Of a DNA stretch of 64,000 bases, positions 9,135 through 56,989 are shown piece by piece. Position numbers and translations under genes: made by a program. The first letter of the stretch is position 1. The number at the start of each line of letters is the position of its first letter. Below the pieces are notes generated by a model. That model saw only the letters and a list, made by a program, of their open reading frames with translations, ran no database searches and was not told the origin of the DNA. The DNA is from an uncultured Gammaproteobacteria bacterium (GTDB lineage: Bacteria; Patescibacteriota; Microgenomatia; Levybacterales; UBA12049), in assembly GCA_964474445.1 (NCBI GenBank), contig CAYYSJ010000004.1, positions 64,185 to 128,184 on the forward strand, read 5' to 3'.

Positions 9135-11141
9135 ATGGTAGAAAAACAAGAACAAAAAGTTCAAGGAGATCCATCTGCAGAACGGATTGGTAAACATCCA
9201 TATTCTGTGGCAACAGCGCGTGTGATAGCTGAAATACCTCATACAGAAATAGGAAAACCAAAAGGAGAGATTACAAATCTAGAGCAACACAAGCAAAGAC
9301 TCCATATCATTGAGGCACACGAGTTAAAACATGATCATATTATTGAGGTTTCAACACAAGAGAGATTGGGAGACCCTCATGCGGTCATTACTATTTATGA
9401 TAATGAAGGAGCAGTTTCAAAAGCACTCAAAATTGAAGAGGCAAACCAAAAATGGAGAGCATCTGTTGTAGATTGGTTAGAAAAAGTATCACAAATTCCT
9501 GGAAATAGTATTGCCACTACTGTCAAGGATGTCTATGGCCTAGATGTAAGCAATCGTGAAAGTGCAGACAAAACGCTTGAACAGGTGCGTCACGCTGCTT
9601 TTGATAGACCTGGTTTGCCTGCGGGTGAGCTTAATGTGGAGAAAATTGTGATGCATTTTACTCATACACATAATGAAAAAGGAGAAGAGGAAGGAATACA
9701 AAAGGAAAATGTGGTAGCAGAAGAGTTAACAGCACTAGAACCTTTCCTCTATATTTTTGGTGGGGAGAAAACAGTTGCTCGTCTTAAACATGCTATTTTA
9801 GCAACTTCAGCACTCCTGAATGCTCCTGTCGGATCATCAGAACGCGAAGAATTGGCAACACAAGTTGCTGACCTTTTGGACCAAGATATAGAGCCTGAAA
9901 ATGCAAAGCATTTTGCTCCTTTTGCTTCCTCCGACCCTATCACTCTTGCTGTTCCTATACAAAACGGTGGTCTAACTCCACCAGCAGCTGAGGGTCCAAT
10001 AGATCCAGAAACTGTTGAAAGGGAGGAAGAAGAGCAAGGAAAGGCAGGAGATGGAGAGTTTACAGGCGGACTCAGAGAAAGACGTGGTGTGGAAGCAGTA
10101 ATTGTTGCAGGAGGGGCTAGTGAAGAAGGTGGAAAACCTGTAAAAGGAGAAGAGGGAGCACCAGAGACACAAGAAGATAAGAGAAGATCAGATCAGGTAA
10201 GAAAAGAGGGTTTGCTTGACGCAATGCTTGCAAAAGATCAAGCCCTTTTAGATGCTGTTGAATGGTATAAGCGCGCTGCAAAAGAAACTCCACTGGGTGA
10301 AATTACCGATGGACCACTAACAGGAGAAGGAGCTTGGAAAGATTTAATTTCTGTAGAAAGAGTCCCTGATAATGCTGAGATTACTATTATTGGTGATCCT
10401 AAACAAGGCGATGGGTTTCAAGTGGTAACGTATCATAAAAATGCAGATGCGATAAAGACTCCTCGTAATATGATTGTCTTTAAGACTGAAGGAGGGCAAG
10501 AAGTGAAGGTAAATGTACAACCTGATAAGATTGAAGGAAGACACTTTACGGTTGAAGGAAAGTATATCCGTATGGGAAACGTGAAGTGGAATCAACCATT
10601 ACTTCGAGAATTTTCTATTCCTCTTGAGCTTCCAGGTGGAACGACAGAACAGGTGAGTGGATGGGTTGGTGTTATCATTCGACCTGATGGACGAGTCTTA
10701 ACTTTGCTCAAGAATGGTGCTGCAGCAGAATTTACAACAGTCCGGCTTGCGCAAATGTCAGCCACAAATTATAAAGATCTAACAGCAGCTGCAACGCTTA
10801 GAGCAGAAGCCTCAGGAAATGCTGATAAGGAAAAAGCATATGCTAAGGTTTTCAGTCAGGAACTTCTTTCAATCTTAAGCAAAATTTATGGTAATCCTGA
10901 AAAATTTGAGGAGGCATTGAATAAAGGTGAAGTGCCATGGGGAGATTTATCTCCTGCGAATGAAGATAGAATTGTTGCAACAAATAAATACTTTGTCCTT
11001 CATGTACCTAATGAGTTAGCAGATCAACTTGTTGAAAACGATCAAAAACGTTGGTCTACGATGAAAGAATTGCAAGCATTTGGAGCAGCAGGCGTATTAA
11101 ATGCACTTGGTTCAGCATCATTATTCCCTTTGATTGCTTAA
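9135..11141 (+). CDS. large acidic hypothetical protein (668 aa); no TM, no signal peptide, central E/G-rich linker
   Basis: Long uninterrupted ORF with plausible codon usage. No recognisable catalytic motif. Confidence 0.7.
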   Translation: MVEKQEQKVQGDPSAERIGKHPYSVATARVIAEIPHTEIGKPKGEITNLEQHKQRLHIIEAHELKHDHIIEVSTQERLGDPHAVITIYDNEGAVSKALKIEEANQKWRASVVDWLEKVSQIPGNSIATTVKDVYGLDVSNRESADKTLEQVRHAAFDRPGLPAGELNVEKIVMHFTHTHNEKGEEEGIQKENVVAEELTALEPFLYIFGGEKTVARLKHAILATSALLNAPVGSSEREELATQVADLLDQDIEPENAKHFAPFASSDPITLAVPIQNGGLTPPAAEGPIDPETVEREEEEQGKAGDGEFTGGLRERRGVEAVIVAGGASEEGGKPVKGEEGAPETQEDKRRSDQVRKEGLLDAMLAKDQALLDAVEWYKRAAKETPLGEITDGPLTGEGAWKDLISVERVPDNAEITIIGDPKQGDGFQVVTYHKNADAIKTPRNMIVFKTEGGQEVKVNVQPDKIEGRHFTVEGKYIRMGNVKWNQPLLREFSIPLELPGGTTEQVSGWVGVIIRPDGRVLTLLKNGAAAEFTTVRLAQMSATNYKDLTAAATLRAEASGNADKEKAYAKVFSQELLSILSKIYGNPEKFEEALNKGEVPWGDLSPANEDRIVATNKYFVLHVPNELADQLVENDQKRWSTMKELQAFGAAGVLNALGSASLFPLIA

Positions 11142-11163
11142 CCAATTCTTCAAAGTTCTTAAG

Positions 11164-11235
11164 TCGGGGTGGAGAGAATTGAACTCTCTACATCTCGGTC
11201 CCGAACCGAGCATTCTGCCGATGAACTACACCCCG
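11164..11235 (-). tRNA. tRNA-Pro (anticodon CGG)
   Basis: Manual fold: acceptor CGGGGTG/CACCCCG, D-arm GTTC-ATCGGCA-GAAT, anticodon stem CTCGG/CCGAG with loop TTCGGGA, T-arm GAGAG-TTCAATT-CTCTC, discriminator A, CCA not encoded. 72 nt. Confidence 0.85.
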
Positions 11236-11260
11236 TAGAGTTCAATTTTCTTTTTATCTG

Positions 11261-11334
11261 CGTCCTCGAGAGGAGTCGAACCTCCGATCTTGCCCTTAGG
11301 ACGGGCCTGCTCTATCCAACTGAGCTACGAGGAC
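11261..11334 (-). tRNA. tRNA-Arg (anticodon CCT)
   Basis: Manual fold: acceptor GTCCTCG/CGAGGAC, D-arm GCTC-AGTTGGATA-GAGC, anticodon loop GTCCTAA (one stem mismatch), T-arm GGAGG-TTCGACT-CCTCT, discriminator G. 74 nt. Confidence 0.8.
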
Positions 11335-11432
11335 TAGTACTGTGTATTTTAGCATAAAATATCTTCTCTACTTCATTTTTTTTCTCTTACCTTTTTCTTA
11401 TCTTCCGAAGTTAAAATAGCATTTACTTTATC

Positions 11433-21154: not shown

Positions 21155-21772
21155 TTGCTATTTTTTCTTTGGAAATTAACGATATTGGTATATAGATATA
21201 ATATGTCAGAAGAAGAAATACGAAAAGAAAAGAGATTACAAAAATTGTATGGGCATGAAGTAACGTCTTTTTTCTATACCAACCCATCAACACAGACACC
21301 CGAACAATTTTCGCTCAGAAGAACTATTTTGATACCACCAGTCCCAGTGAAAGATAGAGCGGATATTAATACGGAAGTTGCAGTTCTTTCAACAATTGAT
21401 GGAGAGGGGAATAGAGTGTTCTATAATGAGGGTGCGTGGGTACGAGACAGTACACAACAAGTGATAACTATTTTCTCTCGAGAAAGTTATTCCATGAGAG
21501 ATAAGGTCATGCGAGGTTTTGTTGGAGGTTTTAATGAAGGAGTTCAACCGTATAGACTCGTTCCAGGCATTGGTGCGGCAACAATTGTTACTGCAATGGA
21601 AACATATGATGTCCCTCTATGGTATTCAGGCGGGGCATGGGATATGAGTGACGGACCACATAGTGGGATATCGTTATATACACGTGTTATTCCTACCTAT
21701 TATGGAGATAAAGTCATGCAAGATTTTGACGAGAAAGAAAGGCGATATCGTCTGAGACTACGGAGAGTTTAG
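21155..21772 (+). CDS. hypothetical protein
   Basis: ORF. Likely start at MSEEEIRK (21203). Confidence 0.5.
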   Translation: MLFFLWKLTILVYRYNMSEEEIRKEKRLQKLYGHEVTSFFYTNPSTQTPEQFSLRRTILIPPVPVKDRADINTEVAVLSTIDGEGNRVFYNEGAWVRDSTQQVITIFSRESYSMRDKVMRGFVGGFNEGVQPYRLVPGIGAATIVTAMETYDVPLWYSGGAWDMSDGPHSGISLYTRVIPTYYGDKVMQDFDEKERRYRLRLRRV

Positions 21773-22284
21773 TACCGCCTTCTATATCCACTATAATCTT
21801 CTTTTGCCATGTGTCCCATTTCATTGATAAACTGTCCTGCATGGGGAATGAATCGGAGAGCGCTACGTCTTACAGCTTGTGCTCCTACTCCTGCAAGTGC
21901 TACCTTTCCCGTTATTTCTTGAAAATTAGTAACAAACTCGGAAGATGCTCCATGTTGAGAAAGAATAGTAGTCATATCTATTCCATGCGGAAATATTCCT
22001 ATATGTGCCAGTGTTTCTGTTGCAAGTATTGTTGCTGTAACAGCCAGAGGTGTAGATGCTATATAATCAATAACGTTATATATACCATAGAGTCCTGAGA
22101 ATCCAATGGCAAATGTTTTTTCCAAACCTCTTGTGTCCATCCACATGACTGTACTTGCTCTTGCCCAATTTTTTGTTCTTTCAAATACCATTTGTGAAAG
22201 TATAAAAAGAAAAAATACAGCTATCTTGACATAAAACAACATAGACCAAAACAAAAAAAAGACATTGGCAGAATTGCTCAACAA
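21769..22284 (-). CDS. hypothetical protein with N-terminal hydrophobic segment
   Basis: ORF 12 nt downstream of the HAD phosphatase gene on the same strand. Confidence 0.45.
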   Translation of the reverse strand: MLSNSANVFFLFWSMLFYVKIAVFFLFILSQMVFERTKNWARASTVMWMDTRGLEKTFAIGFSGLYGIYNVIDYIASTPLAVTATILATETLAHIGIFPHGIDMTTILSQHGASSEFVTNFQEITGKVALAGVGAQAVRRSALRFIPHAGQFINEMGHMAKEDYSGYRRRY

Positions 22285-22296
22285 ATTTTTGTCAGG

Positions 22297-23442
22297 TTAG
22301 GCAGCAGGGATGTATGCAGTATCAAACTGGCTATAGTGGTTTCGTCTATTTATTTCCCATGCAAGATCTGCCATCCGCACTGCCCGTGCAACAGATTCGG
22401 AACCACTTCTTCGCGCACTATCATACAGAAAAATTGTTGGGTTCCAATCGTTTGAATTTTTATGTAAATAAATGCGATGAACAGTTGTCCCACTCGGAAT
22501 TGGCTCAACAACCCTCCTGCTGTGGAGCGCCTGCTGCATTTGTGCCTCTGCCATAAGTGTTTTTCCTACTGGTACTCTCCAAGTGTCTGTTCCAATAGAT
22601 GGATCAAATAATGGATCTATATCGCTATCTCCAGCAAGAATAGCACCATTAATACCTAATTTTTTTTGCAAATATATTATTGCCTTTTCTTTGCCCCAGG
22701 GGACTAATAGGACTTTATGATATCCTGATTTCCTGTCTTTATCTGTTTCTTGAAAAATAAGTACTTTTAGGCCTGGAAATTGTTTATCAAAATGTTTTTG
22801 TAATTCTCCCCTGAATCGTTCAATTCTTTTTCGTGGAGTACCAGGAGTAACAGTGAATTCAAGTCGTATCCGAGATATACTTGTGTCTTTTCCAGGCTGT
22901 GTTTTATCGATACCTCTATATCCAAAGTAAAAATCTGCAAAGTCACGATTCATTCTTCCGATCACCGAGTCAACATCACCCATGACTTTTTCTCTAGGGA
23001 ATCGTTTTCGTAGCCTTCTGGAAAAATTTTGATCTTGTATGAAGTCAGTTGAACAAAGTTCTGTTTGAGGCTTGATGGCTGATTGAGGTTTCAGAATATG
23101 AATCGGCCCTGCAAGTTCCGAGACGACAATGTGAGGAACGGGAATCCGTCCATTTTGAACAAGTTTCAAAACTTCTGAAAGATCTCCTCCTGTACTGTAA
23201 ACTGTTAGCCAAGACTTCTCATGAAGACAGGGTGCAAGGGTTTGGTCCGGACGTCGTCTTGGATCATCAACAGTGCCATTCACATCAGAAAAAAGTGCCC
23301 ATCGTCTTCCTCCAAATCTTGCTGCTTGTTGGTGTAATACCTCTTGGGGAAGTTGGTAGATGTCAGGTTTGGGATAGTAAACTTTATCTCTGATAAAACG
23401 GAGTTGCGCTCTGAGTTGGAGGAGTGGATTTTCAAATGACAT
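22297..23442 (-). CDS. HAD-IIB superfamily sugar-phosphate phosphatase-like protein
   Basis: Motif I LFSDVNGTV (DxxGT) and motif IV GDSDID. 381 aa with extra domain. Sits in a sugar-nucleotide neighbourhood. Confidence 0.55.
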   Translation of the reverse strand: MSFENPLLQLRAQLRFIRDKVYYPKPDIYQLPQEVLHQQAARFGGRRWALFSDVNGTVDDPRRRPDQTLAPCLHEKSWLTVYSTGGDLSEVLKLVQNGRIPVPHIVVSELAGPIHILKPQSAIKPQTELCSTDFIQDQNFSRRLRKRFPREKVMGDVDSVIGRMNRDFADFYFGYRGIDKTQPGKDTSISRIRLEFTVTPGTPRKRIERFRGELQKHFDKQFPGLKVLIFQETDKDRKSGYHKVLLVPWGKEKAIIYLQKKLGINGAILAGDSDIDPLFDPSIGTDTWRVPVGKTLMAEAQMQQALHSRRVVEPIPSGTTVHRIYLHKNSNDWNPTIFLYDSARRSGSESVARAVRMADLAWEINRRNHYSQFDTAYIPAA

Positions 23443-23532
23443 AACAGACAGAGAAGCATATTCATGCTAATAACAGGGCGTAAGGGGAAAAGAAAAGGAG
23501 CGTAAGGGAAATGCAAGAGACTACTAGAAATA

Positions 23533-23838
23533 TTACTTGCCAGGTGTTATCTCATTTGGTGTCCAGATATACTCGTGCTTAAATGTTCCCCATACATGAC
23601 CTTTGACACCACCCATCTTATTAATTTCTTCCCCGTGAAGTCGGGCATGTTCGATAGACCGAATGCGAAAGTTCTCTTCTAAACGCACTTCTTGAATTGA
23701 AACAGTATCGTCATCAATAATTTGCATGCGTCTTCTATAACCACTCAAATAAGAGCCCATGGAAATTGTCTCATCAGGCTTTCGTCGCCTTGTCCGGACA
23801 ACCTTTTCATGATTGTATAACAGTTCAAGGATAGCCAT
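23533..23838 (-). CDS. hypothetical protein (101 aa)
   Basis: ORF only. Confidence 0.4.
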   Translation of the reverse strand: MAILELLYNHEKVVRTRRRKPDETISMGSYLSGYRRRMQIIDDDTVSIQEVRLEENFRIRSIEHARLHGEEINKMGGVKGHVWGTFKHEYIWTPNEITPGK

Positions 23839-24100: not shown

Positions 24101-24487
24101 TTATTTTAGCTCGACTGTTCCGCCTGCTGTTGTAAGTTTTTCTTTTGCTGCATTTGCTGTTTCTTTATTAACAGCGGTTAAGACTTCCTTTGGAGCTGAG
24201 TCTGCTAAAGCTTTAGCTTCGGTAAGTCCGAGTGTTGGGACTAATTCTCTAATAGCTTTAATGACTGCGATTTTGTTTGCTCCTGCTGCAGTGAGAACAA
24301 CGTTAAATACGGTTTGTTCTTCAGCTGGTGCTGCTGCTTCAGCTCCTGCTGCTGCTGGTGCTGCGACTGCCATAGCTGCTGCACTAACGCCAAACTCTTC
24401 TTCCAAAGCTTTGACTATTTCAGAAAGTTCTAAAACAGACATTTCTTTTACTGCTGCAATTAATTCATCTTTAGTTAATTTTGCCAT
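24101..24487 (-). CDS. rplL: 50S ribosomal protein L7/L12
   Basis: [34 protein letters not shown] ... Ala-rich hinge ... TVELK. Start trimmed to the MAKLTKD Met. Confidence 0.95.
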
Positions 24488-24506
24488 CTTGTTCTCACCT
24501 CCTTTT

Positions 24507-25043
24507 TTACCCTTGCTTCTGTTTTTCAATAGCTGCAAGTGTCATAACAAACTTTTGTAAATTCCAAGCAAGTGCTCGGTGGAAGCCCTGGATTGGAGCT
24601 TTCATCATACCAAGCATCTGAGCAACCAAAACTTCTCGTGATGGGAGTGTTGCAAGCTTTGCAACATCTTTATCTGATAAGACTTGGCCATCCATCCAAC
24701 CAAATTTAACGGTTGGCTTTTCCACATCTTTCATCATTTTTGCGAGAGCTTTGAGTGGGGCAACAACATCACCATACAAAAACATAGTTCCTGTTGGTTG
24801 AACGAACTTATCTTCTTGTCCTTCTGCTTTATCTCCAAGAGCAATCTTAAGGAGAGTGTTTTTTGCAACAACATATTCAGCTTCTGCTTTTTTGATTTCT
24901 CTCTTGAATTCTTCAAGCTGCTTGTGGGTAAGGCCAGTGTAGTCAGTAAAGACCATTGCCTTTGATTTATTTACTTTTTCAGTAACTTCAGCGACAATGC
25001 CTTCTTTTTTGACTCTATTTTGTGATATTTTTACGTCTGCCAT
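24507..25043 (-). CDS. rplJ: 50S ribosomal protein L10
   Basis: [13 protein letters not shown]... typical L10. The ORF-track extension to 25187 is the untranslated leader. Confidence 0.9.
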
Positions 25044-25190
25044 AAAATAAAAAACTCGCCCAAAGCGAGTGAATGTTCTTTCGAACGGTTCTCCTCGGTA
25101 AGACTCACTTTTATGCTTACTGTCTTTAGATATATGTATTATAGCAAAGGGGAGAGGGGAAATGCAAGAAGAAGGAGGTTTAGGCATCTA
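25044..25190 (-). promoter_or_regulatory. rplJ 5' leader (probable L10/L12 autoregulatory leader region)
   Basis: ~147-nt untranslated region upstream of rplJ containing hairpins (e.g. ACTCGCCCAAAGCGAGTGA on +). Assigned by position. Confidence 0.35.
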
Positions 25191-25445
25191 TTAATTTCTT
25201 CCGAGAGTGGCCTCAGTTCTTCGTATTTTCCCTTCAACTCTGCACGCTGCAGCTGCTTTTATTAGTGCAATTTTTTCATTTCCTGGTGTCCATGTTCCAT
25301 TTGGAGTAGAAACAGTTACTTCAAAGTCACGGAATAAAGGACAAGCTTCATTTGAGCATTTCAAGTGACATGTAGTTATATTACCATCTAAGGGTACAGT
25401 TCTGACAATCTCTGGTGTGCACTCGCTCAATTTCATAGAGTTCAT
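25191..25445 (-). CDS. hypothetical small Cys-containing protein (84 aa)
   Basis: ORF between the rplJ leader and the unknown genes. 4 Cys (C..CHLKCSNEAC). Confidence 0.4.
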   Translation of the reverse strand: MNSMKLSECTPEIVRTVPLDGNITTCHLKCSNEACPLFRDFEVTVSTPNGTWTPGNEKIALIKAAAACRVEGKIRRTEATLGRN

Positions 25446-26270
25446 ATTTTATATATGGAAGAGCGGGGAAGTCAACTAAATGAGGAGCAAATAAGTGTAA
25501 TGCTGTTGTAAGCTATAAGCCAGGTCTTGCTATTCGGGAATTAATAACTTTAGGTCTAATATGGAGAGTAAAAAAATGTCTTTTTGATTCTTTGCTTGTC
25601 TTTTTGGTAAACTACACACGTATTATGGGAAAAAGAGAAGAAGATAATCCTCCTGCAAGCATAGTTGAGGGCATGCAAAGAAACACAAAGGGCAATTGCC
25701 TCCAGGTTTGAAAAAAGAGTTAGAAGTATTAGAAGCTGAAGCTAGAGCTAGTAAAGACACTGCATGGTTGGGTCGTCTTGCAAACGCCGTAAGAAGAAAT
25801 CCTCTAGCTCCCCCTCACAACTAATTTCATACCCATTTCACTTATCTTTTTACTTATTTCCCGTACTTCTTGTGCTTTCTTTACGTACAAAACAATGACT
25901 CTCTGAGATAATTTATGATCGAGTCCGGGATAGATTTTCAAAAAAAAGGTGTTTAAAGGGCAAATAAAGGCTATTCTTACAAAAGCCTTACTGTTCTCAG
26001 TTTATTCTCAATTGTATATAGTATTTAATATAGTGTATATGAGGCAGGCATATATACCATTACAAGAAGATTATGAAGAATCTTCTAAGAGGAAGAACTC
26101 TGATTTAAGCGGAGTCGAGGATGCAGATGACATGCCAGTAGTTGGGAAAAAGTCATGCATGGCGGAAGCATATAATGAAGAGATAAACTCACGAGCAAAC
26201 GATTCTTCTATTGTAAATTTACTAAAACTCCTTAACTAAGGATGCTATATGTTATGAACTCTACGCTTTG

Positions 26271-26900
26271 CTATCCATGCACTTGATAATAGAGCTGTCC
26301 ATAAGTAGGGAGAGGGATCGTGTAATCTTCTGGTTCTACCCGTGATGGGAAATTAAACCTAATAAATCGCCTTGTTGCCTCCCACGGAACTCTATCCAAT
26401 GCTTTAAAGACCATACTCGCATGTGATATGGCTTGTATTTTTCCTAACCACTGTGAGTAGATTCCCATTTCGTAGTTAAGCCGCCGAGCTCTCTCTAATG
26501 CAAAACTGGCTAAGTCGTCATGATAAAGCGCAGTATAATAACTCGCTCTATCATGGGCTCTTCTGGCTTCATACTGATGGGACATGAGTGTAGATTGGAG
26601 AGAGGCTTCTACAGCTTTTCGTTGTGTAGCACCATCATAACCACCTTCTCTTACTCTGAGAGCAACCTCTTCGGGGCGTAATGCACGTAAACCAATTGAA
26701 ATAAGCATATCTTGTTGGTTAGATGATTTGGTTCGAAGGTGGAAAGGGTCACTTCCTGGTCGTCGTGATGTATATTCAAATCTATTTTTTTGTCCCACTT
26801 CTGTGGTGAAAGGAGAGTATTTATCAGTCATTTCTTGAATCACCCCAGGTGCAAAGCGAGCTGACATATTTGCCCCTATTTCAGAAAAAAAACGTTTCAT
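26271..26900 (-). CDS. hypothetical protein (209 aa), inserted within the rplKA-rplJL region
   Basis: Clean ORF, Arg-rich, no motif recognised. Confidence 0.55.
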   Translation of the reverse strand: MKRFFSEIGANMSARFAPGVIQEMTDKYSPFTTEVGQKNRFEYTSRRPGSDPFHLRTKSSNQQDMLISIGLRALRPEEVALRVREGGYDGATQRKAVEASLQSTLMSHQYEARRAHDRASYYTALYHDDLASFALERARRLNYEMGIYSQWLGKIQAISHASMVFKALDRVPWEATRRFIRFNFPSRVEPEDYTIPLPTYGQLYYQVHG

Positions 26901-27064
26901 AGGTATATCTTATATATGTTTATTGTAGCGATCTTAAAGAAAGCAGATAAGCAGGGAATAAAAAGGTAGTAAGAAAAGGGTAAAAGACTAGTTGTGTTGC
27001 ATAGTTCTTCTGAAGCGAACAGCCACAAAGGGGGAAAATTGTGTATTATTTGTGTTTCCTGCTT

Positions 27065-27691
27065 TTAATCTGGATTTTCTCTATTCCTAGTTGTTAGGGT
27101 ATGAAGGGTAGAATGCTTTTCGTGAGCTGGATATAAAGGAGAAAGGGTAAGAGATCGAATGCCTCGTATCATAGGGTCCTGTGTTCGACGCGTTGGTCTT
27201 CGAAATGTTACTTGTACATTGTGTTCGCTCATGCCCGAAGCATCACTGATAAGTAATTTAGTTTGGGGTTCTTTTAATTGTCTTTTATATTGATTGTGAA
27301 TGCTGTAGTGCTCAAAAAAAAGAGAAGGACTCTCTGTTTTTTGACTGTTTTGTGCTTGAAGAATTGTAATAACTGTTTGGACATCCGCTTCTGCTGTGGG
27401 ATGAATAGGTACCAGACGTATATCTAGTGATCCACGCGCTGTGACCCTTTTCAATCCTAAAAGTGTTTCCAGTTCTGGGTGCAAAAATAGTCCGGGACTT
27501 GAGCCTACACCTTGTGTCACATAGTGCTCGAGAGCAACTCGAAGTAGATGTCGTCTCATTGATCTCGTATTTCTTTCTGAGTCAACCCAAAATTCTGTGA
27601 GAAATTGAAGAAATGGATTTATCATGGCTTTCCGTGCGTATATATACTCCATGTCCCCAAGAAATTTAGAAAAATCATTGTGTTCTGCCAT
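27065..27691 (-). CDS. hypothetical protein (208 aa), directly downstream of rplA
   Basis: Clean ORF, no motif recognised. Confidence 0.55.
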   Translation of the reverse strand: MAEHNDFSKFLGDMEYIYARKAMINPFLQFLTEFWVDSERNTRSMRRHLLRVALEHYVTQGVGSSPGLFLHPELETLLGLKRVTARGSLDIRLVPIHPTAEADVQTVITILQAQNSQKTESPSLFFEHYSIHNQYKRQLKEPQTKLLISDASGMSEHNVQVTFRRPTRRTQDPMIRGIRSLTLSPLYPAHEKHSTLHTLTTRNRENPD

Positions 27692-27785
27692 AGAAGGGCA
27701 GTCTAGAAATCTGGTGTAAGAAGGGCATGAAAAGATCGAAACAACTTTTTGAGATATTACCTAGATGAGGAGGAAGAGAAGAGAG

Positions 27786-28619
27786 TTATTTCCCGAGTTG
27801 AAGTTTGACAGCAGGGGACATGGTTGATTTAACAACCACCGATTTCATATTGGATGTTTTAACAGCAGCAAGTGCTGCTTGAATATTTTCTACAAGCTTT
27901 TCTGTCCCAAAAGAAAGCTTCCCAACACTTAAATGAATAATTGGAGTCTTAGCTTCTGTTTTAAAGTTCATTTGACCGCCTGCGTATTGTTTTGCAACTG
28001 CTTCTGGATTAGGAGTAATCGTTCCATTTTTTGGATTTGGCATAAGGCCTTTTGGTCCCAAAACACGTGCAACTTTTGCAAGCTTAGGCATTGCATCTGG
28101 AGTTGCAATAAGAATGTCAAAATTCAATTTTCCTGATTCAATTTCTTTGAGTAATTCTTCTGCGGCTTTTGCATCCTTATTTGGAGCAAGAATTGCGACT
28201 CGTGTTTGTTTGCCAGTTCCGTAAGGGAGAGTAACGTGGCCAGAAACACCAGAGCTGATTGTATTGATATGCAGCTCAACGGTCTCATCAAACTTTGTCA
28301 TATGAGCTTTTTCAACGAGCTCTAAAGCTTCTTTAAGACTGTATTGCTTACCTTTTTCAATGAGTTTTGCTTTTGAGAGATAATTGGCAGATCGTGCAGC
28401 TTTCTTTTTATCTTGAGTTTGTCGAAGGACTACTTTTTCTGCATATTTCGACTTTTTTGGTTCTTCTGTCTCTTCCATAACAGGTTCAGAAGCCTCCTTT
28501 TTAGCTTGACCTTCAGCTTTTGCAGCTTCAATTTTTGCAAGCCTTTCTTTTTCTTTTGCTTCTTGTTCTAATTTTTTTGCTTCTTCTTGTGCTGGATCAA
28601 CAGCTCGTACTTTTCCCAT
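27786..28619 (-). CDS. rplA: 50S ribosomal protein L1 with ~55-aa K/E/A-rich N-terminal extension
   Basis: Core L1 sequence from SKYAEKVV...FDETVEL... onward, preceded by a charged low-complexity extension. Confidence 0.95.
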   Translation of the reverse strand: MGKVRAVDPAQEEAKKLEQEAKEKERLAKIEAAKAEGQAKKEASEPVMEETEEPKKSKYAEKVVLRQTQDKKKAARSANYLSKAKLIEKGKQYSLKEALELVEKAHMTKFDETVELHINTISSGVSGHVTLPYGTGKQTRVAILAPNKDAKAAEELLKEIESGKLNFDILIATPDAMPKLAKVARVLGPKGLMPNPKNGTITPNPEAVAKQYAGGQMNFKTEAKTPIIHLSVGKLSFGTEKLVENIQAALAAVKTSNMKSVVVKSTMSPAVKLQLGK

Positions 28620-28632
28620 ATATTACTCCTTT

Positions 28633-29052
28633 TTACTTAACTTCTACACCCATAGAGCGGGCGACACCCTGAACAATTTTGACTGCTTGGTCAACGTTGT
28701 CAGTATTCAAATCTTCTAATTTATCTGATGCAATTTTCTTTGCCTGATCTAACGTAATAGATCCTCCTGATTCTTTTCCTGGTTTGCCAGATCCACCATG
28801 TCCGAGTACTTTCTTAATCATTTCAGAAATAGGTGGTTGCTTCGTGATAAAAGAAAAAGTGCGGTCTTCATAGACAGTAATTACTGTTGGTAGTATGTTA
28901 CCTTTCTTATCAGCTGTCTTATCATTAAAAGACTTCACGAATTCCATAATAGGAAGTCCATGTTGACCAAGTGCTGGACCAACAGGTGGCGCTGGAGTAG
29001 CAGTTCCTGCTGGAATATTTAATTTAATTAATGTTTTAATTTTCTTTGCCAT
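28633..29052 (-). CDS. rplK: 50S ribosomal protein L11
   Basis: MAKKIKTLIKLNIPAGTATPAPPVGPALGQHG... classic L11. Confidence 0.95.
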   Translation of the reverse strand: MAKKIKTLIKLNIPAGTATPAPPVGPALGQHGLPIMEFVKSFNDKTADKKGNILPTVITVYEDRTFSFITKQPPISEMIKKVLGHGGSGKPGKESGGSITLDQAKKIASDKLEDLNTDNVDQAVKIVQGVARSMGVEVK

Positions 29053-29125
29053 TTTTGAAGGGGGAGCGTTAAGGGGTAAGGGGAAAAAACTTTCTTCACC
29101 CTTTACGCTTTATCCTTTACCCTTT

Positions 29126-29752
29126 CTATATTTTGCTTACCTGTAAGAAATCTAATTCAACTGGTGTTTCTCGTCCAAAAATACTAACCAAAACTCTGAG
29201 TTTGCCTTTTGTTTCATCTATACTATCAATAGTACCAAGGAAGTCAGAGAATGGACCATCCACAATCTTGACTGCTTCTCCAACAACAAATGATGCTTTG
29301 TAAAGAGGTTCTTCAAGCTTCATGAATTTCTGAATTGCTTCAACTTCTTTTTCTGAAATTGGGGTTGGCTTATTGCCAGCACCAATGAAAGCTGTTACAC
29401 CTGGAGTGGTGCGGACCAAAATCCATGATTCATCAGTTAAAACCATTCTGACAATCACATAGCCTGGGAAGATCTTCTCCTGAATTTGAGTCTTTTTGCC
29501 TTGATTTACTTTGGTTACTTCTCTTGTTGGGACAATGATATCAAAGATATGATTTTCAAAGCCCATGGTCTCTGCTCGTTGGCGAAGAGTCTTTGCAACT
29601 TTGTTTTCATGTCCTGCATAGGTATGGACAATATACCAACGTGCATTATCTGGTATGGTTGGTGTTGTTATCTTTTCTTCTACTTGTTGTTGTGTCTGGT
29701 TCATATAGTTTTGTTGTGCCGAACTTGTTTCAGCAGCTATACTATGCATCAT
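29126..29752 (-). CDS. nusG: transcription termination/antitermination factor NusG (with N-terminal extension)
   Basis: NGN domain (RWYIVHTYAGHENKV) and KOW (GEAVKIVDGPFSDFLGTI). 4-nt ATGA overlap with secE. Confidence 0.9.
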   Translation of the reverse strand: MMHSIAAETSSAQQNYMNQTQQQVEEKITTPTIPDNARWYIVHTYAGHENKVAKTLRQRAETMGFENHIFDIIVPTREVTKVNQGKKTQIQEKIFPGYVIVRMVLTDESWILVRTTPGVTAFIGAGNKPTPISEKEVEAIQKFMKLEEPLYKASFVVGEAVKIVDGPFSDFLGTIDSIDETKGKLRVLVSIFGRETPVELDFLQVSKI

Positions 29753-29931
29753 TTGACCACGACTTGGAGGAGTGAGGTGAAGATGTAATCAAGTCCACCG
29801 ATAAATACTCCCACAATGAGACTGACTAAGATGACTGTTCCGGTTAACCGAACCACTTCTTGTCGAGTCGGCCATGTAACCTTTTTGAGTTCTTCATATG
29901 TTTCTCTCAAAAAGCCTACTGGTGTGGTCAT
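29749..29931 (-). CDS. secE: preprotein translocase subunit SecE
   Basis: 60 aa, single C-terminal TM. Conserved position upstream of nusG. Confidence 0.85.
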   Translation of the reverse strand: MTTPVGFLRETYEELKKVTWPTRQEVVRLTGTVILVSLIVGVFIGGLDYIFTSLLQVVVK

Positions 29932-55570: not shown

Positions 55571-56989
55571 TTATGGCTCGTTCAGTACCCTTTTTCCTTC
55601 TTTCATATTATAGTCATTGCCAACAATAACAAGGACATTGTAATTGCTTTGTTTGGAAGAATTCAACACGGTATCCACTCCAAATTCTTTTTTCAGTACA
55701 TCGATATCAGCTGAATTTACATTATTGTCATATACCGTGATTGTTGTTTGCGGAGAGACATGGGTGATAGAGTTGATTGGACTAAGTACTTGTATATTTT
55801 TGTCTTTTAGTCTGTTAACAGCAAGTCCTGCAAGGCCTGGAATCGTTGTCCCATTCTGAACTTGCACAATTGCAGGAGTTTGTTGTGGCTTGCCAGTTAT
55901 GATGTCTTGAAGATACGTGTGGATGTTCGTCCAATGTTCTAAACCATCTTTTGGTTGGAGAATTGCTTGTCCATCATCTGAGGTGGCGTCGGTGAGGTAG
56001 TCTTGAATCGAAACTGTCTCTATTTTGTATTTATTCAAGATGTTTGCATTTTCAATAAGCGTTTTTACATCATCAAGTGTTAAATCAGTTCTAAAGTCAT
56101 CACCTAAAGAAGTAGTAAACGGAATAACTTGTGGAATAAAGCCAGCTGAAAAGATTTTTTGCTTTACTGCTACGAGAAGATTCCGTTGTCTTTTTGCTCT
56201 CCCAAAATCTGTACCATCTTGGAATGAATGGCGCGACCTCACATACGATAGTGCTCTCTCTCCATCCATGTGTTGCAGTCCTGCGTCGAAGTGAAGATTT
56301 TCGTATCTGCAGGGGTAAACGAGCTCAGGTGAGCTACTTGCTGCTTGTTGATCAAGGTGTGGAATCTCTGATGGTTGATGTCCACACAAGTCAGTTTCCT
56401 TTCCATCAATAGGGTATTGAGAATCGGTAAATGCTGTTTCCACTTGTATGTCTACACCGTTTAACGTATCGATTGTATGCTTAAAACCGGTAAAATCCAT
56501 GCCAACAAAATAATCTATAGGGAAACCTGTTACTTGTGAAACCATATATTCTGCTAAATGTCCTCCACCATCTGGTCCTTTGAATTGTGCTTGTTTATGA
56601 GGATAATTTGTATCATCCAGACCTAACTCATAGGCTGCATTGATTTTCCAATAGCTACTTGTTGGTCCGTCTGTTGGGATTTTCACCCAAAGATCTCTTG
56701 GGATGGAGATAAGAAAAATCTTTTGTGTTTGAGGGTCAATAGAAACAACCATTATGGAATCAGTTAAATATGCTCCGTCATGATTTCCGCCTCCATACCC
56801 TAAAAGAACAAGGTTTATAGGAGTTTTATCATTCAATTTTTGTTGGAGTGAGCTTATGGAAGCTTTTCCGTGGGGGATGAAGACTTTCTTCGTAATACCA
56901 TGAAACCACAGGTATGCAATACATCCTCCAATTCCTAAAAGGAGCACGAGGGAGAAAAGGATAACGAGCTTCTTCATAGAGGTTAGCAT
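55571..56989 (-). CDS. LytR-CpsA-Psr (LCP) family cell-wall glycopolymer transferase with C-terminal LytR_C domain
   Basis: TM then VLLGYGGG...YLTDSIMVVSID...ISIPRDLWV motifs. Confidence 0.85.
   Translation of the reverse strand: MLTSMKKLVILFSLVLLLGIGGCIAYLWFHGITKKVFIPHGKASISSLQQKLNDKTPINLVLLGYGGGNHDGAYLTDSIMVVSIDPQTQKIFLISIPRDLWVKIPTDGPTSSYWKINAAYELGLDDTNYPHKQAQFKGPDGGGHLAEYMVSQVTGFPIDYFVGMDFTGFKHTIDTLNGVDIQVETAFTDSQYPIDGKETDLCGHQPSEIPHLDQQAASSSPELVYPCRYENLHFDAGLQHMDGERALSYVRSRHSFQDGTDFGRAKRQRNLLVAVKQKIFSAGFIPQVIPFTTSLGDDFRTDLTLDDVKTLIENANILNKYKIETVSIQDYLTDATSDDGQAILQPKDGLEHWTNIHTYLQDIITGKPQQTPAIVQVQNGTTIPGLAGLAVNRLKDKNIQVLSPINSITHVSPQTTITVYDNNVNSADIDVLKKEFGVDTVLNSSKQSNYNVLVIVGNDYNMKEGKRVLNEP

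What the first reader, a model, noticed from the sequence alone, without database searches (positions are those of the whole stretch)
25191..27691. Unknown genes inserted inside the conserved secE-nusG-rplK-rplA / rplJ-rplL ribosomal cluster
rplA ends at 27786 and rplJ starts at 25043; normally these are adjacent. Here ~2.7 kb intervenes. It carries two ~208-aa hypothetical proteins (27065..27691, 26271..26900) and an 84-aa Cys-containing ORF (25191..25445), all on the r-protein strand. A possible antisense GTG-start ORF lies at 25949..26239.

None of these has a recognisable motif. Genes placed in this highly expressed, tightly conserved operon are likely co-expressed with the translation machinery. 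They could be lineage-specific ribosome-associated factors or an inserted cassette.
Basis: partly seen in the sequence, partly recalled or inferred. Interest (0 to 1): 0.6.

Follow-up and report, generated by a model that had tools for sequence, protein, structure and literature searches.

The report
Orphan-gene island between two ribosomal operons
The 2.7 kb between the ribosomal genes rplA and rplJ is a fast-changing slot for accessory genes that exists throughout this group of tiny bacteria (Levybacteria-like CPR), and here it holds two or three real species-specific genes of unknown function, with no sign that they are conserved ribosome helpers.

Summary
Between rplA (stop 27786) and rplJ (ATG 25043) lie 2.74 kb. 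They carry ORF-A (208 aa), ORF-B (209 aa) and ORF-C (81-84 aa) on the r-protein strand, and a 66-96-aa ORF on the other strand.

ORF-A and ORF-B are real genes:
- They are longer than any ORF in 2000 simulated islands.
- Their coding statistics match the host.
- ORF-A has pN/pS of about 0.2 against a 96.6%-identical strain.

All three ORFs are orphans. They hit only themselves among 5.8 billion proteins and match nothing in Pfam, NCBIfam, PHROGs or PADLOC. ORF-A and ORF-B also have no significant match in PDB sequences. Structure models for ORF-A and ORF-B are low confidence.

In this Levybacteria-like CPR lineage, rplA and rplJ were adjacent in none of the related loci.
- 28 related loci have 1.3-8 kb gaps with differing cargo: glycosyltransferases, IS1595 transposase, a VirD4-like ATPase and unknowns. 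One further locus carries an AbiEii toxin inserted at the rplA 3' end.
- The closest relatives, whose nusG, rplK and rplJ are 93-98% identical, share none of the three ORFs.
- rplJ keeps its own conserved extended -10 promoter and L10 leader.

This is a hypervariable accessory-gene hotspot at the boundary of two r-protein operons. Nothing marks the ORFs as conserved ribosome factors, and their function stays unknown.

The parts
27786..28619 (-). rplA (uL1), 277 aa, with a roughly 75-aa K/E/A-rich N-terminal extension. This is the left (upstream) core-gene boundary of the island.
   Evidence: The ORF is listed and its product is flagged PF00687 Ribosomal_L1. Nucleotide homology to L004, L071 and L072 ends exactly at 27786.
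27692..27785 (-). 94-nt spacer between rplA and ORF-A, with no terminator-like hairpin and no Shine-Dalgarno sequence.
   Evidence: The terminator scan finds nothing on this strand here. The RNA fold is -9.5 kcal/mol with z = +1.05 against shuffles. The upstream sequence is shown.
27065..27691 (-). ORF-A: an orphan protein-coding gene of 208 aa. The product is basic (pI 9.4), 8.7% Arg and soluble.
   Evidence: - Coding score is 0.100 bits/codon in frame, negative in the other five frames.
- Against strain variant L073 there are 29 nt differences, 19 of them at codon position 3. That is 17 synonymous and 11 nonsynonymous codons, giving pN/pS of about 0.2.
- It hits only itself in 5.8e9 proteins. 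In 1.84e9 representatives it hits itself plus three repeat-protein artefacts.
- The AF2 model has pLDDT 36.
26271..26900 (-). ORF-B: an orphan protein-coding gene of 209 aa. The product is basic (pI 9.5) and 10.5% Arg, with a confidently predicted helical hairpin at about residues 90-160. A -10-like box TATAAGAT lies 6 nt before the ATG.
   Evidence: Coding score is 0.158 bits/codon. It hits only itself in 5.8e9 proteins. AF2 gives mean pLDDT 51.5, with residues 90-160 at 68-91. Foldseek against PDB finds nothing at E <= 1e-3.
26039..26239 (+). Opposite-strand small ORF: 66 aa from ATG 26039, or 96 aa from GTG 25949. The product is acidic (pI 4.5). It is a possible gene and the only island element with a weak counterpart in the closest relative.
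   Evidence: It is called as a 66-aa gene in the Logan contigs L074 and L075. Its coding score is about 0. It is the reciprocal best non-self phmmer hit with L071 8168-8323(-), at E 0.004-0.008 among 19,075 segments.
25446..26038 (.). Stretch with no ORF of 50 aa or more on either strand. It holds two adjacent short + strand ORFs (25592-25711 and 25696-25824) that would join through a frameshift, so it may be decayed coding sequence.
   Evidence: ORF list. Coding scores are negative in all six frames across 25446-26270.
25191..25445 (-). ORF-C: a small Cys-containing orphan ORF of 84 aa, or 81 aa from Met4 at 25436. Coding status is uncertain. TTGACT, an 18-nt spacer and TAAAAT lie directly before the ATG.
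   Evidence: It is called as an 81-aa protein in the public records, with only a self hit. Its coding score is -0.049, borderline.
25138..25167 (-). rplJ promoter: -35 TTGCAT (25167-25162), an 18-nt spacer, and the extended -10 TGCTATAAT (25146-25138). This is the right boundary of the island.
   Evidence: In alignment A1 of seven loci, the G of the TG motif and T1, A2, A4 and T6 of the -10 hexamer are invariant, and the -35 region is conserved as TTGnCA.
25040..25147 (-). L10 (rplJ) leader with the AAGACAG...CCGAGG motif and a terminal hairpin plus U-tract (25070-25054).
   Evidence: Rfam RF00557 scores 29.5 bits, E 0.034, below the gathering score of 44. The same model passes gathering at the same position in L071 (50 bits) and L007 (47.5 bits). 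The motif columns are invariant in alignment A1.
24507..25043 (-). rplJ (uL10), 178 aa.
   Evidence: plus PF00466. Homology to L071 resumes at 25044.
24101..24487 (-). rplL (bL12), 128 aa. It is followed by further orphan ORFs, not by rpoBC.
   Evidence: Relatives also lack rpoB downstream of rplL.

Best explanation
The region is a hypervariable accessory-gene island. It sits at the boundary between two separately controlled r-protein transcription units: secE-nusG-rplK-rplA, and rplJ-rplL with its own promoter and L10 leader.

In this Levybacteria-like CPR lineage the rplA|rplJ junction is open in every genome examined and holds different cargo in each. In this genome the cargo is two real species-specific orphan genes (ORF-A, ORF-B), a doubtful small Cys-containing ORF (ORF-C), a possible small opposite-strand gene, and about 0.6 kb of apparently decayed sequence.

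How it most likely works:
- Because rplJL is autonomous, DNA gained or lost here does not disturb r-protein expression, so the site tolerates turnover (shown: autonomy of rplJL; inferred: tolerance).
- Cargo arrives by insertion just at or after the rplA 3' end and by mobile elements. Relatives show this, with a 141-bp rplA-end duplication around an AbiE module in L009, an IS1595 transposase and Replic_Relax protein in L011, and a VirD4-like ATPase in L096. The same route is inferred for the window, which keeps no mobility gene or repeat.
- ORF-A is probably transcribed by read-through from rplKA. ORF-B and ORF-C are probably transcribed from -10-like boxes just upstream of their ATGs, a layout common in this genome (inferred).

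The orphan proteins are basic, Arg-rich and soluble. I take them to be flexible-genome proteins, with conflict or host-interaction roles like the cargo in relatives, and not translation factors (inferred, weakly).
For: Island status:
- tblastn mapping shows rplA-rplJ gaps of 2.1-8.0 kb in 6 GTDB-genome relatives and 3.75 kb in the closest one, L071/L072.
- 21 further metagenome loci have gaps of 1.3-7.0 kb, median 2.4 kb. None is adjacent.
- Most non-CPR bacteria in the same scan have approximate gaps of -8 to about 220 nt.

Different cargo in relatives (Pfam; clustering):
- GH63-like hydrolase
- AbiEii toxin
- PaaX/Cas2-like protein
- DUF11 surface proteins
- GT1, GT2 and GT4 glycosyltransferases
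- IS1595 transposase
- Replic_Relax
- TrwB/VirD4-like ATPase
- many unknowns

No trace of ORF-A, B or C elsewhere:
- tblastn and phmmer find nothing in about 150 related loci.
- Pooled dS between the window and L071 is about 0.7. At ORF-A's pN/pS of about 0.2, an orthologue would still be roughly 75-80% identical. Absence therefore means replacement, not divergence.
- L004 and L071 share the first gene after rplA (E 3e-8), and the window lacks it.

Sharp boundaries: homology ends at the rplA stop codon and resumes at the rplJ ATG.

rplJ autonomy: the extended -10 promoter and the L10 leader are conserved. Separate L1 and L10(L12)4 autoregulation of rplKA and rplJL is established knowledge (PMC3616713).

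Real genes: see the ORF-length simulation, coding scores and pN/pS.

Insertion mechanism in a relative: the 141-bp, 95.7%-identical direct repeat of the rplA 3' end that brackets AbiEii in L009.
Against: - The window's island has no integrase or transposase, no flanking repeats and no compositional anomaly. GC is 0.39 against about 0.38 in the flanks, and GC3 and codon statistics are host-like. How and when this cargo arrived is therefore not shown.
- All clearly coding ORFs here, and all seven ORFs in L071's island, point the same way as the r-protein genes. No terminator follows rplA. Both points are what a co-transcribed operon extension would look like.
- Basic Arg-rich proteins could bind rRNA.
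- The function of the orphans is unknown. The 'conflict or host-interaction' assignment rests only on analogy with cargo in other genomes.
- ORF-B has no population variant, so selection on it is untested.
Confidence: 0.7

Rival explanations
1. ORF-A, B and C are lineage-specific ribosome-associated or translation-related factors. They are co-transcribed with secE-nusG-rplKA and kept in the operon for co-expression.
For: - They share the strand of the r-protein genes.
- No terminator-like structure follows rplA.
- ORF-A is under purifying selection.
- ORF-A and ORF-B are basic and Arg-rich, with pI about 9.5, like many RNA-binding proteins.
- All seven ORFs in the closest relative's island also run in the same direction.
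Against: - The genes are absent from the closest relatives, whose nusG, rplK and rplJ are 93-98% identical, and from about 150 related loci.
- They have no homologue anywhere in 5.8e9 proteins.
- The same slot holds glycosyltransferases, a toxin, a transposase and other cargo in relatives.
- A possible opposite-strand gene and about 0.6 kb without coding signal interrupt the series.
- rplJ has its own conserved promoter.
Confidence: 0.07
2. The orphans arose or were remodelled in situ. The spacer downstream of a very highly expressed operon is pervasively transcribed by read-through. It acts as a cradle where new ORFs are born or evolve so quickly that homology is lost.
For: - Complete lack of homologues.
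- Host-like codon usage and GC, with no foreign signature.
- Very low-confidence structure predictions.
- The closest relative's island is likewise filled with small, co-directional orphan ORFs.
- No mobility genes or repeats are present.
- Apparently decayed sequence lies next to the ORFs.
Against: - ORFs of 208-209 codons are far beyond what random sequence of this composition gives. The simulated maximum is 184 and the mean is 81.
- ORF-A has pN/pS of about 0.2, so it does not evolve fast enough to erase homology at dS of about 0.7.
- Arg content is twice the host mean, which is not what translating host-composition DNA predicts.
- Relatives clearly acquire ready-made foreign genes at this site.
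Confidence: 0.12
3. The ORFs are spurious: chance open frames in non-coding or decaying DNA.
For: ORF-C and the opposite-strand ORF have coding scores near zero. None of the ORFs has a homologue. AF2 confidence is poor.
Against: For ORF-A and ORF-B:
- 0 of 2000 simulations reach 208 codons.
- Coding scores fall within the host-gene range, with all alternative frames negative.
- 19 of 29 substitutions in ORF-A are at codon position 3, and pN/pS is about 0.2.

This rival remains live only for ORF-C and the 66-aa ORF.
Confidence: 0.04

Closest known systems
Horizontal-gene-transfer 'hotspots' or flexible genomic islets flanked by conserved core genes. This is the concept of Oliveira, Touchon, Cury and Rocha 2017, Nat Commun, cited from my own knowledge and not retrieved here.
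   Same: The same pair of core genes (rplA, rplJ) brackets different cargo in every related genome. The cargo classes are typical of the flexible genome: toxin-antitoxin, IS element, conjugation ATPase, glycosyltransferases, surface proteins and orphans. The boundaries at the core genes are sharp.
   Different: The hotspot lies inside what is elsewhere one of the most conserved gene strings in bacteria. The window's copy carries no mobility gene, no repeats and no compositional signature. The cargo here is entirely orphan.
The E. coli and B. subtilis rplKAJL-rpoBC region. It has separate rplKA (L1-regulated) and rplJL (L10(L12)4-regulated) units, and the L10 leader is Rfam RF00557.
   Same: Gene order secE-nusG-rplK-rplA ... 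rplJ-rplL is retained. rplJ is preceded by its own promoter and by a leader with the AAGACAG...CCGAGG motif and a terminal hairpin plus U-tract. Background comes from PMC3616713.
   Different: 1.3-8 kb of unrelated genes separate the two units throughout this lineage. rpoBC does not follow rplL. The window's leader scores below the Rfam gathering threshold, at 29.5 against 44 bits.
Genomic islands that integrate into the 3' end of a conserved gene and supply a replacement end, as in tRNA- or tmRNA-targeting islands (from my own knowledge).
   Same: In relative L009, a 141-bp direct repeat of the rplA 3' end (95.7% identical) brackets an AbiEii toxin module directly after rplA. This shows that insertions at this exact site occur.
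   Different: No such repeat and no integrase are present in the window. The target is a protein gene, not a tRNA. The L009 insert has no recognisable recombinase within the repeat-bounded segment.
Orphan (taxonomically restricted) genes of CPR/Patescibacteria genomes.
   Same: These are small, basic proteins without any database homologue, and single-sequence structure prediction gives low-confidence models.
   Different: For ORF-A, purifying selection is demonstrated with a second strain, which is rarely available for such orphans.

Membership tests
Conserved r-protein operon member or ribosome-associated factor | Conserved co-location with r-protein genes in related genomes | tested here: not met
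   No tblastn or phmmer hit of ORF-A, B or C in about 150 related loci. These include relatives with 93-98% identical nusG, rplK and rplJ.
Conserved r-protein operon member or ribosome-associated factor | Homology to a known ribosomal or translation-factor family | tested here: not met
   Nothing significant in Pfam, NCBIfam or PHROGs for any of the three ORFs. ORF-A and ORF-B also have no significant match among PDB sequences. Foldseek against PDB was run only for ORF-B and gave nothing at E <= 1e-3.
Conserved r-protein operon member or ribosome-associated factor | Co-transcription with rplKA and physical association with ribosomes | not testable with these tools
   Only indirect evidence exists. 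No terminator-like hairpin follows rplA. No transcript or proteome data are available.
Genomic island or HGT hotspot flanked by core genes | Same flanking core genes in relatives, with different gene content between them | tested here: met
   28 loci have 1.3-8 kb gaps with mostly unrelated cargo. Homology breaks exactly at the rplA stop codon and the rplJ start codon.
Genomic island or HGT hotspot flanked by core genes | Mobility genes (integrase, transposase, conjugation) in the island | tested here: not met
   None in the window. They are present in relatives' islands: IS1595 transposase and Replic_Relax in L011, and a TrwB-like ATPase in L096.
Genomic island or HGT hotspot flanked by core genes | Flanking direct repeats or a duplicated target end | tested here: not met
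   The window has only short, chance-level repeats. The feature is met in relative L009, with a 141-bp repeat of the rplA 3' end.
Genomic island or HGT hotspot flanked by core genes | Atypical base composition or codon usage | tested here: not met
   Island GC is 0.39 against about 0.38 in the flanks. GC3 is 0.27-0.31 and coding scores fall within the host range. Only the amino-acid composition is unusual, being Arg-rich.
Anti-phage defence or toxin-antitoxin system | Match to a known defence or TA protein model | tested here: not met
   PADLOC gives only Drt5 at E 0.015-0.03 for ORF-B, which is not significant. Pfam gives nothing.
L10 leader (Rfam RF00557) upstream of rplJ | Score at or above the gathering threshold, with the kink-turn-like AAGACAG...CCGAGG motif and a terminal hairpin plus U-tract immediately 5' of rplJ | tested here: inconclusive
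   The window scores 29.5 bits against a threshold of 44, at E 0.034. The homologous position passes the threshold in L071 (50 bits) and L007 (47.5 bits). The motif columns are invariant in the 7-locus alignment, and the hairpin and T-tract are at 25070-25054.

The most novel reading that the evidence does not exclude
The spacer directly downstream of the highly expressed secE-nusG-rplKA operon may act as a 'gene nursery' across Levybacteria-like CPR bacteria. Read-through transcription would give free expression to newly born or newly captured ORFs. Some of these, such as the basic, Arg-rich ORF-A and ORF-B, would become selected species-specific proteins, possibly modulating the ribosome's L1 or L7/L12 stalk region.
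Probability: 0.1. Interest if true: 0.6.

Novelty: new member of a known kind. Interest (0 to 1): 0.3.

Why it matters
The result corrects an attractive but unsupported reading, that unknown genes inside a ribosomal operon must be translation factors. The classical rplKAJL string is split in every genome examined from a whole CPR clade, and the split acts as a fast-turnover slot for accessory and orphan genes.

It has three practical uses:
1. It warns against guilt-by-association annotation in this lineage.
2. It offers an easily located, core-gene-flanked locus for tracking strain-level gene flux in Levybacteria metagenomes.
3. It provides one orphan gene (ORF-A) with direct evidence of purifying selection, a rare starting point for studying CPR orphan proteins.

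It does not reveal a new molecular system.

Tried and rejected
- **Paralogy of ORF-A and ORF-B.** BLASTP finds no similarity.
- **Family searches.** Pfam, PHROGs, PADLOC and NCBIfam gave nothing for all ORFs, and the ORF-A and ORF-B searches against PDB sequences gave nothing significant.
- **Full HMMER scan of 1.84e9 representatives with ORF-A.** Three hits at E 1e-9 to 5e-7 turned out to be long repeat proteins: He_PIG/RTX, FG-GAP/Big_1, and a junk tandem repeat. Each matched a different ORF-A segment 6-8 times. These are repeat-inflated artefacts, so I rejected them.
- **AF2 single-sequence models.** ORF-A has pLDDT 36 and is unusable. ORF-B has pLDDT 51.5, with only a helical hairpin predicted confidently. 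Foldseek against PDB gave only generic PspA, Vipp1 and ESCRT-III hairpins at E >= 0.07, which I did not interpret.
- **Flanking repeats or att sites in the window.** Only short chance matches were found.
- **A family of small 4-Cys proteins.** By eye, ORF-C seemed to share a Cys pattern with L071 and L004 island ORFs. BLASTP, phmmer and an HMM built from the L004 and L071 pair did not recover ORF-C or the other L071 ORFs, so I dropped the idea.
- **Misassembly.** Rejected, because independent assemblies are identical to the window.
- **Alternative genetic code.** Not needed, since all flanking genes read through with table 11.
- **Rfam.** It finds no RNA gene in the island. Only sub-threshold chance hits appear besides the L10 leader.
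- **Literature.** One search found no description of this split in CPR.
Full report
**1. What is there**

On the minus strand the window encodes secE (29931-29749), nusG, rplK (29052-28633) and rplA (28619-27786).

Then come ORF-A (27691-27065, 208 aa), ORF-B (26900-26271, 209 aa), and an 825-nt stretch with no minus-strand ORF of 50 aa or more.

After that lie ORF-C (25445-25191, 84 aa, or 81 aa from Met4), rplJ (25043-24507) and rplL (24487-24101).

On the plus strand inside the 825-nt stretch there is a 96-aa GTG ORF (25949-26239). Public gene calls start it at ATG 26039, giving 66 aa.

The contig is not a misassembly. Logan assemblies from at least five runs are 100% identical to the window and tile the whole rplK-to-rplJ interval.

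**2. Are the ORFs genes?**

- **ORF length.** In 2000 Markov simulations of the island, the longest ORF averaged 81 codons, with a maximum of 184. The observed values are 208 and 209.
- **Coding statistics.** I trained a 3-periodic Markov model on 29 long genes of the window. Leave-one-out scores average 0.18 bits/codon, with a range of -0.01 to 0.30. The model gives ORF-A 0.100 and ORF-B 0.158, and all other frames are negative. GC3 is 0.27-0.31, which is host-like.
- **Borderline cases.** ORF-C scores -0.049 and the plus-strand ORF -0.005.
- **Selection on ORF-A.** A second strain (L073, ERR3317248) is 96.6% identical over 1.19 kb. ORF-A carries 29 substitutions, 19 of them at codon position 3. 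That is 17 synonymous and 11 nonsynonymous codon changes, giving pN/pS of about 0.2. The adjacent rplA segment has 4 synonymous and 0 nonsynonymous changes.

ORF-A is therefore a protein-coding gene under purifying selection. ORF-B is very probably coding. ORF-C and the 66-aa ORF are uncertain.

**3. What are the proteins?**

All three are orphans.
- The 5.8-billion-protein search returns only the query itself for ORF-A, ORF-B and ORF-C.
- Pfam, PHROGs, PADLOC and NCBIfam give nothing significant for any of them, and PDB sequences give nothing significant for ORF-A or ORF-B.
- A full HMMER pass over 1.84 billion representatives with ORF-A found three extra hits. All are long repeat proteins matched piecemeal, so they are artefacts.
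- ORF-A and ORF-B are unrelated to each other.
- The single-sequence AlphaFold2 model of ORF-A is unusable, with pLDDT 36. The ORF-B model is weak, with pLDDT 51.5 and only a helical hairpin at about residues 90-160 predicted confidently.
- Foldseek against PDB gave only generic helical-hairpin matches above E 0.06.
- Both proteins are hydrophilic, basic (pI about 9.5) and unusually Arg-rich, at 8.7% and 10.5% against a host mean of 4.1%.

**4. Context in relatives: the decisive evidence**

rplA-based and rplJ-based scans identify the organism as a Levybacteria-like member of the CPR/Patescibacteria.

Gap sizes between rplA and rplJ:
- Six GTDB-genome relatives have gaps of 2.1-8.0 kb.
- The closest relative, L071/L072, has a gap of 3.75 kb. 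Its aa identities to the window are rplJ 93%, rplK 94% and nusG 98%.
- 21 metagenome loci have gaps of 1.3-7.0 kb, with a median of 2.4 kb.
- About a dozen further loci have rplA inverted downstream of rplJL.
- Most non-CPR bacteria caught by the same scan have approximate gaps of -8 to about 220 nt. A few are larger, and in some loci rplJ was not detected.

The cargo differs from genome to genome:

| Locus | Cargo between rplA and rplJ |
|---|---|
| L007 | GH63/MGH1-like hydrolase |
| L009 | AbiEii toxin |
| L006 | PaaX/Cas2-like protein, DUF11 protein, large unknown |
| L008 | GT1 and GT2 glycosyltransferases, DUF11 protein, large unknown |
| L011 | IS1595 transposase, Replic_Relax protein |
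| 5-7 loci of one subclade | GT4 glycosyltransferase plus DUF2784 pair |
| L096 | TrwB/VirD4-like ATPase |
| others | unknowns |

None of about 150 loci contains anything similar to ORF-A, B or C by tblastn or phmmer.

Nucleotide homology between the window and L004, L071 and L072 stops exactly at the rplA stop codon (27786). It resumes at the rplJ start codon (25044).

Pooled dS between the window and L071 is about 0.7. A gene evolving like ORF-A would still be roughly 75-80% identical at that distance. Its absence therefore reflects gene replacement, not divergence.

L004 and L071 share the first gene after rplA, a small Cys-containing protein (phmmer E 3e-8). The window does not have it. 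This suggests the window lineage replaced that part of the island.

The only faint link between the window's island and L071's island is the opposite-strand small ORF. It is a reciprocal best non-self hit at E of about 0.004-0.008.

**5. Transcriptional architecture**

An alignment of the 266 nt upstream of rplJ from seven loci shows three conserved elements:
- a -35-like TTGnCA;
- an invariant extended -10, TGnTATAAT (window 25146-25138);
- a conserved leader carrying AAGACAG...CCGAGG, ending in a hairpin plus U-tract (25070-25054).

Rfam's L10_leader model scores 29.5 bits in the window, below its gathering score of 44. It passes that threshold at the same position in L071 (50 bits) and L007 (47.5 bits).

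It is established that rplKA and rplJL are autoregulated separately, through L1-binding and L10(L12)4-binding leaders (PMC3616713).

rplJL is therefore an autonomous unit, and the island lies between two operons, not inside one.

On the upstream side, no terminator-like hairpin follows rplA. The fold has z = +1.05. Read-through into ORF-A is therefore plausible but unproven.

Many genes in this window lack a Shine-Dalgarno sequence and have a -10-like box a few bases before the ATG. ORF-B (TATAAGAT, then 6 nt, then ATG) and ORF-C (TTGACT, 18-nt spacer, TAAAAT, then ATG) fit that pattern. This suggests they have their own promoters, which is inference only.

**6. How cargo gets there**

The window keeps no mobility gene, no flanking repeat and no compositional signature.

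Relatives show active processes at the same site:
- In L009, a 141-bp direct repeat (95.7% identical) of the last 45 codons of rplA brackets an AbiEii module. This is the footprint of an insertion into the rplA 3' end that supplies a replacement end.
- L011 carries an IS1595 transposase and a Replic_Relax protein.
- L096 carries a conjugative coupling-protein homologue.

Homologous recombination between the conserved flanks is a further possible route. I did not test it.

**7. Verdict**

'Inserted cassette' fits the evidence. 'Ribosome-associated factors kept in a tightly conserved operon' does not.

The best description is a lineage-wide, hypervariable accessory-gene hotspot at the rplA|rplJ operon boundary. 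In this genome it carries species-specific orphan genes.

The orphans' function is unknown. I rate an accessory, flexible-genome role as most likely, a translation-related role as unlikely (about 0.07), and in-situ gene birth as a minority possibility (about 0.12).

This is a new example of a known kind of genome feature, and its interest is moderate to low.

Noticed in passing
L009:10578-11747: A 141-bp direct repeat (95.7% identical) of the last 45 codons plus stop of rplA brackets an AbiEii toxin gene (10713-11372, minus strand) and an 88-aa ORF. It looks like an element that inserted into the rplA 3' end and carries a replacement end. No recombinase lies within the bracketed segment.
   Followed up: partly
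window 28395-28619 (rplA N-terminus): rplA has a roughly 75-aa Lys/Glu/Ala-rich N-terminal extension, giving 277 aa in total. It is much more diverged from L004 and L071 (76-80% aa identity) than nusG and rplK are (93-98%). A 2025 paper reports that Microgenomatia lack 23S helix H78 of the L1 stalk (PMC12641178), so a link is conceivable.
   Followed up: no
window 21769-23838: rpoB and rpoC do not follow rplL. Instead there are three more minus-strand orphan ORFs: 101 aa, 381 aa with a sub-threshold HAD/S6PP-like match (E 0.008), and a hydrophobic 171-aa ORF. The 101-aa and 381-aa ones are represented only by themselves in the protein collection (single-member clusters); the 171-aa sequence is not in the collection. 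All three are basic, and two are Arg-rich like ORF-A and ORF-B. Relatives also have variable genes after rplL.
   Followed up: partly
window 25044-25187: Public gene calls for rplJ (226 aa, P0009) start at ATG 25187. They therefore translate through the conserved promoter and L10 leader. The real start is ATG 25043, giving 178 aa.
   Followed up: yes
window 26119-26178 and L071:8226-8285: This roughly 60-nt patch is the only detectable similarity between the two islands apart from the rplJ promoter and leader. It falls in small opposite-strand ORFs in both genomes: 66 aa in the window and 51 aa in L071. The shared peptide motif is G(K/R)KSCM.E.Y.E. Significance is marginal, at E of about 0.004-0.008.
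   Followed up: partly
L004:2744-2995 and L071:6305-6604: The two relatives share the first gene after rplA, a small protein with four Cys residues (motifs CGY...CRRxGxCFL...AGQW[FY]C). The phmmer E-value is 3e-8. The window has ORF-A at this position instead.
   Followed up: partly
window, many gene starts (e.g. 9135, 38349, 53757, 55571-56989, 59562): Many genes lack a Shine-Dalgarno sequence and have a TAnnnT box 5-10 nt upstream of the ATG. This suggests widespread leaderless or near-leaderless mRNAs in this genome.
   Followed up: no
window 24101-29931 vs L071: Synonymous divergence from the closest relative is very uneven across neighbouring genes: rplL 0.19, secE 0.23, rplJ 0.60, rplA 0.92, nusG 1.02 and rplK 1.41. 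Codon-bias constraint or recombination among lineages could explain this.
   Followed up: no
window 25592-25824 (+): Two adjacent short plus-strand ORFs (39 aa and 42 aa) would join into one reading frame through a single frameshift. The joined product would read ...MGKREEDNPPASIVEGMQRNTKG / LPPGLKKELEVLEAEARASKDTAWLGRLANAVRRNP.... This may be a decayed gene.
   Followed up: no
L104, L119, L123, L125, L131-L133, L136, L137, L142-L144, L153: In these more distant metagenome relatives, rplA lies 1-5 kb downstream of rplJ-rplL on the opposite strand. The two r-protein units have been rearranged relative to each other, not merely separated.
   Followed up: no
L007, L008 record titles: Contigs carrying clearly Levybacteria-like r-protein genes are labelled Methylomirabilota and Gammaproteobacteria MAGs in the public records. 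This probably reflects binning contamination.
   Followed up: no
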